Source of the DNA: the human T2T-CHM13v2.0 reference genome, Homo sapiens | Length of the DNA: 64,000 nt | Direction: 5' to 3' (one strand) | Assembly: GCF_009914755.1 (NCBI RefSeq) | Contig: NC_060941.1 | Shown: in pieces, positions 52,620 through 62,929 of the stretch | How the letters are laid out: each line of letters opens with the position of its first letter | How positions within the stretch are numbered: the first letter of the stretch is position 1 | The notes under the pieces: model-generated | What the model was told of the DNA's origin: nothing | Database searches by the model: none | The model's input: the letters and a program-made list of their open reading frames with translations, nothing else | Position numbers and translations under genes: made by a program

Positions 52620-53110
52620 TGAGGTAGGCGGCGGAACTCGACTCCAAAGGTAGGGCTTGGACACTGGACCAAATTGAAGACTAGCTAAACAGGGACTGAG
52701 AGAAAGCAGCTTTCCATAAGACACGCCCACCAGTGTGCCGTGTCAGTTTACCGTTACCATGACAACACCGGAAGTTACCACCCCTTTCCATGGCAATGAC
52801 CTGACAACCCAGAAGTTACCACCCTTTTTCTAGAAATTTCTGTATAGTCTGGCCCTTAATTTGCATATAACTAGATGGGCACACATATGATGCAGAACTG
52901 CCCTGAGCTGGTGCTCTGGGCACACTGCCTATAGGGTAGCCCTGCTCCACAAGGAGCAGTCTGTCTGCTGCTGCTGTGCACTGCCGCTTCAATAAAAGTT
53001 GCTGTCTAACACCACCGGCTCCCCTAGCTTGCCCTTGAATTCTTTCCTGGGCAAAGCCAAGAACCCTGCCAGGCTAAGCCCCAATTCTGGAGTTCACCTG
53101 CCCTGCATCA
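52620..53110 (+). mobile_element. Solo ERV1-class LTR (MER4/MER41-group-like; subfamily not certain)
   Basis: TG...CA ends, 491 bp, 4-bp flanks GTTC/GTTG, AATAAA at 52991, typical U5 end gaattctttcctgggcaaagccaagaacc. Confidence 0.85.
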
Positions 53111-53263
53111 GTTGCACGTAGCACAGTTTCATTAGTTTGGCCTTGAGGGGCCAAGAGCAATCCTGCTTTGCACCACCCACCATGAAAGGGAGCAGGAGCT
53201 GGCAGGGTGCGGTGGCTCACGCCTGTAATCCCAGCACTTTGGGAGGACGAGGCGGGAGGATCA

Positions 53264-53587
<324 letters not shown>

Positions 53588-62032: not shown

Positions 62033-62515
62033 TCATTGACTGAATGGCCACTAAATGCTCTGTGCAGGCTGGATGAGGGGCTACAAAAATGAGTACCACA
62101 CTTCCCTGCCCCTAAGGAGGTGAATTACAAACCCACGACACACTCACCTCCAAACACACAATCATTCAAAGCAAAGAGAGAAAGATGTCTCATTTTTCCC
62201 TTCTATGGGAGAGAAACTTTTTTGACCTTGTCCAATAAAACTAACATTCACATATATGTGGTGTTTGCTTTTAGAATTGCATTTTGTAATTAGTAAGAGA
62301 ACATCACCTTTTTAGAATTATCACAGTTCCACTTGTCCATGGTCAACACAAAGCTACTTGCTAGTAGGTCTGGCTCTCAGCTATCCAGATACGAAATTCT
62401 GACCAACTACCAAAATCATAATAACGCATTCTTTAAATTCACCTCATCGGAGATGGAGTCTTGGAGACTTAATTACATGTGCTGTTGGTGTAATTAAACT
62501 TTTTTCTTTGTGAAT

Positions 62516-62929
62516 ACTGTTGTCCCTCGATATCCATGGGGGATTGTACCAGACCCCCACAGATACCAAAATCTCAGGATGCTCAAGTCTTTTCTGTAAA
62601 ATGGCATAGTATTAGCATATAACCTAGGTACACCCTTCTGTATATTTAAAATAATCTCTAGATTACTTATGGCCAACTCTAGGTGTACTGCCTATGAGTT
62701 AGCTCTGCTCCATAAGGAGAAGTAAAAAAAAAATCATCTATAGATTACTTATAAAACCACATAAGATGCTGCACATCATTTCGTTTGTGGGGGATTCAAC
62801 ATAGTACTCAGCACGTGGAAAATTCAAGTTTCAACTTTTGAAACTGTGGAATTTTTTTCTGAATATTTTCTATCCACGGTTGGTTGAATCCATGAATCTG
62901 GAACCCATGGATATGGACAGCTATATCTG
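62516..62929. mobile_element. MER2B-like Tigger-family DNA transposon
   Basis: tgttgtccctcgatatccatggggg...ccatggatatggacagct terminal inverted similarity; MER2 body motifs. Confidence 0.75.
62671..62733 (+). mobile_element. Short A-tailed retrocopy of an ERV1 LTR R-region segment inserted in MER2B
   Basis: 37/47 ungapped identity to 52914-52960; A10 tail; 23-bp TSD (2 mismatches) at 62648-62670 and 62730-62752 after TTT/AAAA. Confidence 0.8.

What the first reader, a model, noticed from the sequence alone, without database searches (positions are those of the whole stretch)
62648..62752. A 53-nt TAR-like ERV LTR R-region RNA apparently retroposed by L1, with its source family present in the window
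Seen: a 53-nt insert (62671-62723) followed by A10 and flanked by a 23-bp duplication starting at a TTT/AAAA site, the signature of L1 target-primed insertion. It aligns without gaps at 37/47 to 52914-52960 of the solo LTR 10 kb away. It begins about 25-30 nt after that LTR's decayed TATA position (~52880-52890) and ends 30 nt before the LTR AATAAA, so it is not a normal LTR 3' end. It folds into two hairpins (gccaactc-taggt/gccta-t-gagttagc and ctgctcc-ataa-ggagaag), and several differences from the LTR keep the pairing (tgggc/gccta vs taggt/gccta). Established: HIV makes short TAR hairpin RNAs from +1 of R by promoter-proximal pausing, and L1 mobilises A-tailed RNAs in trans. Inference: ancient ERV1 LTRs produced discrete structured short RNAs in the germ line that were oligoadenylated and retroposed as SINE-like micro-elements, a fossil of an attenuation system.
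Basis: partly seen in the sequence, partly recalled or inferred. Interest (0 to 1): 0.85.

Follow-up and report, generated by a model that had tools for sequence, protein, structure and literature searches.

The report
Retrocopied short RNA from retroviral LTR
A 53-base insert upstream of PECAM1 is an old LINE-1-made DNA copy of a short hairpin RNA that started at the promoter of an extinct retrovirus's LTR, and it is one of well over a hundred such copies in the human genome.

Summary
Window 62671-62723 is a 53-nt insert with an A10 tail and a 23-nt target-site duplication (21/23). It sits in an old DNA transposon whose paralogs show the uninterrupted site. It matches the R region of an ERV1-type LTR family.

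A census unbiased for flanks shows it is not a one-off. Of 121 related loci examined, 63 lack U3. These copies start at one base about 30 nt after the LTR TATA box. About half end at the foot of the second hairpin (columns 51-55), and most are followed by an A-rich tail. Many have A-started duplications.

Their first base is usually a G that most LTRs lack, the known mark of a reverse-transcribed cap. The 3' end lies 7 nt (one LTR type) or about 31 nt (the other) before AATAAA, so it is not the viral poly(A) site.

The hairpins are thermodynamically unusual, but covariation gives no support. Short copies are as diverse as the LTRs, so there were many sources, about 45-55 Myr old. The solo LTR in the window is a sister subtype, not the source.

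"TAR-like attenuation" remains inference. I could not fix the Repbase/Dfam family name.

The parts
62648..62670 (+). Upstream copy of the target-site duplication; starts AAAA right after TTT (L1 endonuclease-type site).
   Evidence: 23 nt, 21/23 identical to 62730-62752; single copy of this stretch in 4 of 4 paralogs of the host transposon.
62671..62723 (+). The 53-nt insert: a retrocopy of the first ~52 nt of an ERV1-type LTR transcript (R region, two hairpins). Base 62671 (G) is probably the untemplated cap-derived G.
   Evidence: homology to the R region of LTR copies. (column-1 G in 32/52 U3-less copies vs 4/41 LTRs). (fold).
62724..62733 (+). A10 tail. Its last four A (62730-62733) are also the first bases of the downstream duplication copy, so the tail/TSD border is ambiguous by 4 nt.
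62730..62752 (+). Downstream copy of the target-site duplication.
62507..62900 (.). Host element: an old high-copy DNA transposon copy into which the retrocopy inserted. Bounds are approximate (the extent matched by paralogs).
   Evidence: 2989 first-look candidates. Paralogs 78-86 % identical cover query 1-172 and 229-401 of window 62500-62900.
52620..53110 (+). Solo LTR of the sister subtype ('type B') of the same ERV1-type family. TG...CA ends read from the sequence; the 5' bound was not verified by comparison.
   Evidence: (pieces 67-81 % identical to two type-A LTRs). (L170 is this LTR and aligns with 16 other type-B LTRs).
52908..52960 (+). The stretch of that LTR homologous to the insert (R hairpins). 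The decayed TATA lies about 30 nt upstream and AATAAA at 52991-52996.
   Evidence: 37/47 and 37/53. (-25.2 kcal/mol, z -2.19); the RefSeq soft mask covers only 52911-53016 of this LTR.

Best explanation
The insert is a LINE-1-made (target-primed) DNA copy of a discrete, capped RNA of about 52 nt. That RNA began at the transcription start of an ERV1-type LTR and ended at the foot of the second of two R-region hairpins, upstream of the LTR's own AATAAA.

Shown:
- The insertion hallmarks (TSD, A tail, endonuclease-type site, paralogous empty sites).
- The homology to LTR R regions.
- A large population of copies with the same 5' end and a clustered 3' end.
- The extra 5' G.
- The predicted hairpins.
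- The same age and diversity in short copies and LTRs.

Inferred:
- Many LTRs of the family, active in the germ line about 45-55 Myr ago, released such short RNAs by early (promoter-proximal) termination or pausing just past the hairpins.
- These RNAs received short A tails, or the L1 enzyme switched onto them from a poly(A) tail.
- They were then inserted by L1.

The window copy came from a 'type A' LTR elsewhere in the genome, not from the 'type B' solo LTR 10 kb away.
For: Insertion hallmarks.

Census A (pattern from insert columns 17-33, up to 1 mismatch):
- 180 genome matches against 1 for the reversed control.
- I examined 99: all 41 exact matches and the first 58 of 139 one-mismatch matches. 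They split into 6 unrelated, 41 LTRs with U3 and 52 without U3.
- All 52 U3-less copies start within -6..+17 of column 1 by local alignment.
- The commonest-base share rises from 0.37-0.46 (columns -7..0) to 0.62-0.75 at columns 1-3.

Census B (pattern from the window LTR):
- 172 matches against 1 control, 30 examined.
- 17 LTRs and 10 short copies by motif rule. L182 adds an eleventh: it shows a tail and a 15-nt TSD. One locus is unrelated and one ambiguous.

5' base:
- Column 1 is G in 32/52 U3-less copies against 4/41 LTRs (T in 29/41). Fisher p = 1.9e-7.
- The same shift appears one base later in type B. By the motif rule, G is in 5/10 short copies and T in 14/18 LTR-class loci; that class includes L182.
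- Untemplated 5' G on full-length L1/SVA insertions is attributed to the reverse-transcribed cap (PMC3287187, passages read).

3' end:
- Homology ends at columns 51-55 in 26/52, and 38/52 have at least 50 % A in the next 12 nt.
- Only 4 copies (L055, L058, L087, L113) end after AATAAA at columns 71-93.
- Type-B short copies end at the same column although their parent LTRs carry about 31 more nt before AATAAA.
- None of the 41 LTR-class loci stops at column 53; the earliest 3' end among them is column 71.

Insertion sites:
- TSD score of 9 or more in 19/52 against 0/52 with a control anchor.
- The TSDs start with A in 11/17 and 14/17 at positions 1 and 2.

Structure: median z is -2.9 (27/40 LTR copies below -2) and -2.6 (22/38 short copies). 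U3 controls give -0.3 (1/40) and U5 controls -1.2 (11/40).

Many sources, same age: pairwise distance is 0.293 among short copies, 0.272 among LTRs and 0.282 between the sets. Variant frequencies at polymorphic columns are alike.
Against: - No RNA data of any kind were available. The short RNA is inferred from its DNA copies only.
- No covariation beyond shuffles, so selection on the hairpins is unproven.
- The origin of the A tail is unknown.
- 14 of 52 U3-less copies lack an A-rich stretch, and TSDs were found in only 19 of 52 (two of them A-runs). Some 'U3-less' loci are therefore LTR pieces cut by other events, for example L054, L073, L104 and L113 (Alu in the tail).
- The census needs a conserved 17-mer, so it misses decayed copies.
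- 4 of 41 LTRs do have G at column 1. A G-type LTR lineage as main source would explain the 5' G without a cap.
- Repbase/Dfam could not be consulted, so the class may already be noted there.
Confidence: 0.8

Rival explanations
1. Same L1 retrocopy, but the template was first a complete 'R-only' transcript: started at the LTR start site and cleaved and polyadenylated at the LTR's own poly(A) site. It was then chewed back 3'-to-5' to the stable second hairpin and re-adenylated before L1 copied it. No early termination is needed.
For: - Four copies with the same 5' end do run through AATAAA to columns 71-93 and then carry A tails (L055, L058, L087, L113). R-only polyadenylated RNAs therefore existed.
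- The common 3' end is exactly the last paired base of a 7-bp hairpin, a natural stop for an exonuclease.
- A few copies end at intermediate points, columns 58-60 (L037, L095, L112, L121).
Against: - Canonical-end copies are rare: 4 of 52, against 26 ending at columns 51-55. Yet long-tailed RNAs should be the better L1 templates.
- None of the 11 type-B short copies ends at the type-B poly(A) site.
Confidence: 0.25
2. Ordinary, randomly 5'-truncated short processed pseudogene of a long transcript that ended in an LTR. This is the class of short mRNA pseudogenes described by Terai et al.
For: - Short (300 bp or less) poly(A)+TSD pseudogenes made from mRNA 3' ends are known (PMC2831318, abstract and outline read).
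- L1 copies are often 5'-truncated (general knowledge).
Against: - 5' ends are not random. All 52 U3-less copies begin within -6..+17 of one base, and no copy with part of U3 plus a tail at column 53 was seen among 41 LTR-class loci.
- The 3' end is not at the poly(A) site; it lies 7 or about 31 nt before AATAAA.
- There is an extra 5' G.
Confidence: 0.03
3. The short element is a cellular small-RNA gene or SINE with its own promoter. It spread by itself, and the retrovirus picked up its sequence as R.
For: - Copy number is in the hundreds.
- The RNA is small and structured, and the copies are A-tailed like SINEs.
Against: - No Rfam family matches. Three hits at E 0.49-6.1 are far below gathering scores.
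- Short copies carry the same mix of subtype variants as the LTRs, including the type A / type B split. That needs many LTR sources rather than one master.
- The extra G points to a polymerase II cap.
- I did not scan for polymerase III boxes with a tool.
Confidence: 0.04
4. Not a retrocopy at all: a scrap of LTR left by deletions, or a chance similarity.
For: The piece is only 53 nt long and 37/53 identical to the LTR in the window.
Against: - 87-89 % identical relatives exist over the full length.
- It has a TSD and a tail.
- Paralogous empty sites are seen in 4 of 4 paralogs.
- The next best chance match in the window is 24/47.
Confidence: 0.01

Closest known systems
HERV-W processed pseudogenes made by LINE-1
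   Same: ERV transcripts copied by L1. The copies lack U3 at the 5' end because they start at R, and they carry a poly(A) tail, a TT/AAAA site and 5-15-nt duplications (PMC5537654, passages read).
   Different: - Those are copies of whole viral RNAs (R-U5...U3-R) ending at the viral poly(A) site. These are about 52-nt copies of the start of R only, ending before AATAAA.
- The LTR family is different.
- That review calls HERV-W the sole HERV group mobilised by L1.
Poly(A)-tailed retropseudogenes of small nuclear and other small RNAs (U1, U6, Y RNAs)
   Same: Full-length small structured RNAs that are not normal poly(A) RNAs, found with A tails, TSDs and L1 cleavage sites. The proposed routes are atypical adenylation before L1 capture, or template switching from an L1 poly(A) tail (PMC4476161, passages read).
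   Different: The parent here is a retroviral LTR promoter, not a cellular small-RNA gene. The RNA is not a known stable species, and no Rfam family matches.
HIV-1 promoter-proximal pausing at the TAR hairpin
   Same: A hairpin-forming RNA encoded from the first base of R. Polymerase II pauses at the proviral promoter (PMC7291205, passages read). That HIV makes short TAR-ending transcripts of about 60 nt is my recollection, not from the passages read.
   Different: - No sequence likeness.
- A gamma-type (ERV1) LTR, not a lentivirus.
- No transactivator known.
- No direct RNA evidence here, and two hairpins instead of one.
Short processed pseudogenes of mRNAs (Terai et al. 2010)
   Same: Very short poly(A)+TSD retrocopies overlooked by usual pseudogene screens (PMC2831318, abstract and outline).
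   Different: Those are 3' ends of mRNAs with variable 5' truncation, and repeats were removed before that screen. These have a fixed 5' end at a start site and a non-poly(A)-site 3' end.

Membership tests
L1-mediated (target-primed) retrocopy | Flanking target-site duplication of roughly 7-20+ nt | tested here: met
   23 nt, 21/23 identical. Single copy in 4 of 4 host paralogs. In the population, TSD score of 9 or more in 19/52 vs 0/52 control.
L1-mediated (target-primed) retrocopy | 3' A tail directly after the copied RNA | tested here: met
   A10. In the population, at least 50 % A in the next 12 nt in 38/52.
L1-mediated (target-primed) retrocopy | Insertion at a TT/AAAA-like endonuclease site | tested here: met
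   Window: TTT then AAAA at the start of the TSD. In 17 clear TSDs, A at position 1 in 11/17 and at position 2 in 14/17; T at -1 in 8/17.
L1-mediated (target-primed) retrocopy | Copy of an RNA, not of the gene: no promoter, starts at the transcript's first base, often with an untemplated G | tested here: met
   No U3 in the 52 U3-less copies of census A; starts at column 1. Column-1 G in 32/52 vs 4/41.
R region of an ERV1-type LTR | Homology to the stretch between TATA box and poly(A) signal of LTRs that have U3, R, U5 and a primer-binding site | tested here: met
   - 41 + 17 LTR copies hold the same 53 nt about 22 nt after TATAAATA and 7 or ~31 nt before AATAAA.
- L130: the LTR is followed, after 2 nt, by a TGG-initial 18-mer matching tRNA-Arg(CCG) 14/18 and tRNA-Trp 13/18, the best of 19 tRNAs tried.
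R region of an ERV1-type LTR | Named Repbase/Dfam LTR family | not testable with these tools
   - No repeat library was at hand.
- LTR strings are not in print.
- 8 ORF pieces of one provirus interior gave no Pfam match.
- My guess 'MER4 complex' is recollection only.
HERV-W-type processed provirus | R-U5-internal-U3-R structure ending at the viral poly(A) site | tested here: not met
   Only 53 nt of R are present, and the copy ends before AATAAA.
TAR-like promoter-proximal hairpin RNA | Stable hairpin(s) formed by the first bases of the transcript | tested here: met
   Predicted folds: z -2.2 to -2.6. Medians -2.9 and -2.6 against -0.3 (U3) and -1.2 (U5) controls. 84.9 % of cells paired vs 37-43 % when slid.
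TAR-like promoter-proximal hairpin RNA | Structure kept by compensatory change | tested here: inconclusive
   - Paired cells 84.9 % vs 84.8 % shuffled. Five pairs have double changes vs 6.6 expected.
- The 3' half of hairpin 1 was fixed by the way the loci were found.
- The copies are mostly neutral decay products.
TAR-like promoter-proximal hairpin RNA | Short RNA ending just past the hairpin is really made; a factor acts on it | not testable with these tools
   No expression data. The 3' end at column 51-55 in 26/52 copies is indirect evidence only.
SINE | Own internal promoter and descent from master copies of the short element itself | tested here: not met
   Short copies share the LTRs' variant spectrum and both LTR subtypes. 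No Rfam small-RNA match. Polymerase III boxes were not scanned with a tool.

The most novel reading that the evidence does not exclude
The short copies may be a fossil record of promoter-proximal transcription control in a gamma-type retrovirus about 50 Myr old. Its LTRs would have released abundant capped ~52-nt double-hairpin RNAs in the primate germ line, through a TAR-like or short-transcript-inducing attenuation system. These RNAs would have been stable and A-tailed often enough to be captured by LINE-1 well over a hundred times. If so, short-RNA output at LTR promoters could be read from genomes alone, family by family.
Probability: 0.3. Interest if true: 0.8.

Novelty: new variant of a known kind. 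Interest (0 to 1): 0.6.

Why it matters
L1-made copies of ERV transcripts are held in print to be a peculiarity of HERV-W (PMC5537654). Small-RNA retropseudogenes are known only for cellular genes (PMC4476161). This finding adds three things.

- A second ERV family fed L1, and through a tiny start-of-R RNA rather than the viral genome.
- The copies give base-precise, experiment-free evidence for where an extinct retrovirus's promoter started, including the cap G.
- They show that most of its L1-captured transcripts stopped about 52 nt downstream, at a hairpin.

The question of whether early termination at LTR hairpins is older and wider than lentiviral TAR thereby becomes testable, by counting fragments in genomes and by looking in existing nascent-RNA data. 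It also matters for annotation. More than half of the sampled genomic matches to this R segment are not LTR remnants at all.

Tried and rejected
Known RNA family. Rfam on 62500-62900 gave nothing near a gathering score.

Tail as a decayed AATAAA, or L1 priming on AAUAAA. Rejected. Most short copies lack the 7 nt that separate column 53 from AATAAA. Type-B copies end at the same column although AATAAA is about 31 nt further in their LTRs.

snRNA-type promoter and 3' box. I recalled a likeness of the U3 octamer/TATA region to an snRNA-type promoter, and of the stretch after column 53 to an snRNA 3' box. I did not test it. The type-B result argues against a role for that stretch.

Covariation. 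Tested and not found.

Naming the family. All routes failed.
- LTR strings in full-text search: 0 papers for the two long strings. The 12-mer gave only unrelated primer hits. 'MER41' with a U3 9-mer gave 0.
- Vargiu et al. 2016 (PMC4724089, passages) lists groups but prints no sequence to compare.
- The primer-binding site of one provirus (L130) was ambiguous: Arg-CCG 14/18, Trp 13/18, with only 19 of 49 anticodon families tried.
- 8 ORF pieces from 2.5 kb of that provirus's interior gave no Pfam hit. I did not go on to the protein search.
- The published anchor 'MER41.AIM2, 220 bp upstream of AIM2' (PMC9963469, passages) could not be placed. The 10 kb I fetched has no match to my LTRs. The stretches I took for the anchor are an Alu and low-copy DNA. 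This test therefore says nothing about MER41.

Supplements of papers were closed. Tables of HERV loci there might have named the chr13 provirus.

One item (L063:1-20) was a meaningless filler and is not used.

Novelty searches were made, all in PMC/bioRxiv full text. None listed a paper on R-only LTR retrocopies. Repbase/Dfam notes were not searchable.
Full report
THE OBSERVATION. Window 62671-62723 is a 53-nt stretch followed by ten A. It is bracketed by a 23-nt direct repeat, 62648-62670 and 62730-62752, that is 21/23 identical. The upstream repeat begins AAAA directly after TTT.

The stretch lies in a high-copy old transposon: 2989 first-look candidates, with scored paralogs 70-86 % identical. 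In paralogs, alignments stop at query 169-172 and resume at 229-232, which are the two inner ends of the repeat. In each of the 4 paralogs where both halves were scored (chr1, chr8, chr15, chr18), the two halves overlap by 21-25 nt on the subject. An uninterrupted transposon therefore holds one copy of the duplicated stretch and nothing between. This is a paralogous empty site, so insert, tail and one repeat copy came in together.

The next best match in the whole window is 24/47.

WHAT THE INSERT IS HOMOLOGOUS TO. A genome search with the insert plus tail gave 37 matches at E up to 10. Their flanks, seen for 29 of the 30 loci fetched, fall into two contexts.

- Inside LTRs. The 53 nt begin about 22 nt after a TATAAATA box, which puts the first base about 30 nt after the box's first T. 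In 'type A' LTRs they end 7 nt before AATAAA. In 'type B' LTRs they end about 31 nt before it. The solo LTR at window 52620-53110 is type B.
- Alone. Here they carry no U3, start at the same base, and are followed by A-rich sequence and often a visible duplication.

The window insert is type A. It differs from the window LTR at 16 of 53 positions, but from its nearest relatives elsewhere at only 6-7 of 53 (L032, L104, L038, L125). The LTR 10 kb away is kin, not the parent.

A CENSUS THAT DOES NOT LOOK AT FLANKS. To avoid choosing by tail, I searched a 17-mer from the middle of the insert (columns 17-33) with up to one mismatch. This gave 180 matches, against 1 for the reversed pattern. I fetched ±300 nt for all 41 exact matches and for the 58 one-mismatch matches that were listed (chromosomes 1-7) of 139.

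Local alignment to ten real LTR copies and simple cut-offs gave, of 99 loci:

| Class | Loci |
|---|---|
| Unrelated | 6 |
| LTR with U3 | 41 |
| Without U3 | 52 |

The 52 U3-less loci split into 38 ending by column 65, 11 ending at columns 66-99 and 3 running on into U5. An independent motif rule agreed: a U3 motif was found in 41/41 LTR-class loci and in 1/52 of the others.

The same test with the window LTR's own 17-mer gave 172 matches and 1 control. Among the 30 loci delivered, 17 are LTRs and 10 are short copies by the motif rule. L182 was misfiled by a chance motif hit but shows a tail and a 15-nt duplication. One locus is unrelated (L165) and one ambiguous (L181).

In all, 63 of 121 related loci are U3-less copies. 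Scaling to all pattern matches gives roughly 95 + 63 such copies. This is a lower bound, because decayed cores are missed.

THE ENDS.

5' end.
- All 52 U3-less copies of census A begin within -6..+17 of column 1. Local alignment trims mismatched ends.
- The share of the commonest base is 0.37-0.46 at columns -7..0 and rises to 0.62-0.75 at columns 1-3.
- Where a duplication is clear, its upstream copy usually ends at column 0 or ±1.

The first base.
- Column 1 is G in 32/52 U3-less copies but in 4/41 LTRs, where it is T in 29/41. Fisher p = 1.9e-7. Column 2 is G in both sets.
- In type B the same thing happens one base further on. By the motif rule, G replaces the LTR's T in 5/10 short copies, against T in 14/18 of the LTR-class loci; that class includes the misfiled L182.
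- I read this as follows: the RNA began at the G of column 2 (type A), was capped, and was copied to its very end.

3' end.
- Homology stops at columns 51-55 in 26/52, earlier in 9, at 56-65 in 3, at 66-95 in 11 and beyond in 3.
- Several of the '66-95' class are A-rich tails that the aligner laid over the LTR's AATAAA (L053, L088, L129 by eye).
- Only L055, L058, L087 and L113 truly run past AATAAA, to columns 71-93, before the tail.
- 38/52 have at least 50 % A in the 12 nt after the end.
- Column 52 is the last paired base of the second hairpin.

Insertion sites.
- Duplications scoring 9 or more were found in 19/52 and in 0/52 with a control anchor 120 nt upstream. Two of the 19 are A-runs.
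- In 17 clear cases the duplication starts with A at position 1 in 11 and at position 2 in 14, with T before it in 8. This fits the TT/AAAA site quoted for L1 (PMC5537654).

WHY THE 3' END IS NOT THE POLY(A) SITE.
- No poly(A) hexamer lies within the 53 nt (read).
- Most short copies lack the 7 nt between column 53 and AATAAA. The tail is therefore neither a decayed AATAAA nor priming on it.
- Type-B short copies stop at the same column although their LTRs have a different, longer stretch before AATAAA.
- No LTR-class locus stops at column 53; the earliest 3' end among the 41 is column 71. The odd 3' end goes only with the start-site 5' end.

The template was thus a discrete RNA of about 52 nt.

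STRUCTURE.
The window LTR's homolog does the same (-25.2, z -2.19).
- Across copies, the median z against mononucleotide shuffles is -2.9 (27/40 LTRs below -2) and -2.6 (22/38 short copies). Equal-length U3 and U5 pieces of the same LTRs give -0.3 (1/40) and -1.2 (11/40).
- On an alignment of 92 copies, 84.9 % of cells pair, against 37-43 % when partners are slid. Shuffling gives 84.8 %, and double changes are no commoner than expected.
- The fold is a real property of the sequence. Selection for it is not shown. The test is weak here, because half of hairpin 1 was fixed by the search pattern and most differences are post-insertion decay.

SOURCES AND AGE.
- Over the 34 columns not fixed by the pattern, the mean pairwise distance is 0.293 among U3-less copies, 0.272 among LTRs and 0.282 between the sets. 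The main polymorphic columns have similar variant frequencies in both.
- The short copies therefore came from many LTRs across the family's diversity and are about as old as the LTRs.
- Two LTRs 7.1 kb apart on chr13, taken as one provirus, differ at 95 of 489 aligned sites (K2P 0.233). That is about 47-53 Myr at 2.2-2.5e-9 per site per year; the rates are recalled.
- LTR copies are 78-86 % identical to one another over 173 nt.
- For the window copy, the duplication (2/23) gives 21 Myr with a 95 % range of 2.5-80 Myr. Its closest relatives (6-7/53) give about 28-33 Myr as pairwise half-distances.
- I put it at roughly 25-55 Myr, in an anthropoid ancestor.

FAMILY.
- The LTRs have TG...CA ends, an octamer-like ATTTGCAT, a TATA box and AATAAA.
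- In L130 an 18-mer follows 2 nt after the LTR. It best matches tRNA-Arg(CCG) (14/18) and tRNA-Trp (13/18) among 19 tRNAs tried.
- This fits a class I (ERV1, gamma-like) element.
- I could not fix the Repbase/Dfam name: there was no library, no printed sequence, no Pfam hit in 8 interior pieces, and the MER41 anchor test failed for lack of the anchor.
- From memory the LTRs look like the 'MER4 complex'. That is a guess.

MECHANISM.
- Shown: an RNA with a capped 5' end at the LTR start site and a 3' end at the foot of hairpin 2 was copied and inserted by L1, many times, from many LTRs.
- Inferred and preferred (about 0.45 of my belief): polymerase II stopped or was released early, just past the hairpins. 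The short RNA received a short A tail of the kind added to unstable nuclear RNAs, and L1 ORF2 protein used it.
- Next (about 0.25): complete R-only RNAs, whose existence four copies prove, were trimmed back to the hairpin and re-adenylated.
- The A tail may instead come from template switching off an L1 poly(A) tail, as discussed for U6 (PMC4476161).
- The scarcity of canonical-end copies (4 of 52 against 26 at columns 51-55) favours a short RNA as the main species.

COMPARISON AND NOVELTY.
- Nearest by mechanism are the poly(A)-tailed retropseudogenes of snRNAs and Y RNAs (PMC4476161).
- Nearest by origin are the HERV-W processed pseudogenes. A review calls these unique among HERV groups (PMC5537654).
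- Nearest by idea is pausing at HIV TAR (PMC7291205).
- Six full-text searches listed no paper on start-of-R LTR retrocopies. Repeat-library notes and paper supplements could not be seen.
- I rate the finding a new variant of a known kind.

LIMITS.
- There is no RNA evidence.
- The census depends on a conserved core.
- Class cut-offs are simple, and a handful of 'U3-less' loci are cut LTRs (L054, L073, L104).
- The family name is open.
- G-type LTRs (4/41) could in principle explain the 5' G without a cap.

Noticed in passing
L004 / L104 (chr3:128.19 Mb, minus strand), R start at L004 reverse-complement position 1501: A copy that starts at R column 1 without U3, runs through U5 to the exact end of the LTR and then meets unrelated DNA, with no A tail. 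It is an 'R-U5 only' piece, the content of a retroviral strong-stop product (that comparison is recalled).
   Followed up: partly
L036 (chr2:128.47 Mb): A start-site copy that reads through AATAAA and ends at column 106 in U5, followed by nine A. This is a third kind of 3' end.
   Followed up: no
window 52911-53016: The only RefSeq soft-masked stretch of at least 100 nt inside the solo LTR runs from the R start to about the R end. The rest of the LTR is unmasked. This fits R words being over-represented in the genome.
   Followed up: no
U3 of the LTR copies, e.g. window 52866-52890; L130 470-520: An ATTTGCAT octamer about 60 nt before the start site, a second TATA-like box, and in L130 a TTCnnnGAA-type motif about 110 nt upstream. 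A likeness of this region to snRNA-type promoter elements is only my recollection and was not tested.
   Followed up: no
L127 and L128 (chr7:68.40 and 73.85 Mb): Two LTR loci nearly identical over 433 nt (alignment score 826 vs about 300 for other pairs). Presumably a recent segmental duplication. L128 was dropped from the alignment and the distance counts.
   Followed up: no
L132 (chr13:49,042,800-49,045,300): The interior of the chr13 provirus candidate holds Alu-like insertions and gave no Pfam match in 8 ORF pieces. Either it is very decayed or it is not a coding interior.
   Followed up: partly
window 53198-53528: An Alu-like repeat lies about 90 nt after the solo LTR (soft-masked; reads GGCTCACGCCTGTAATCCCAGC...).
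   Followed up: no
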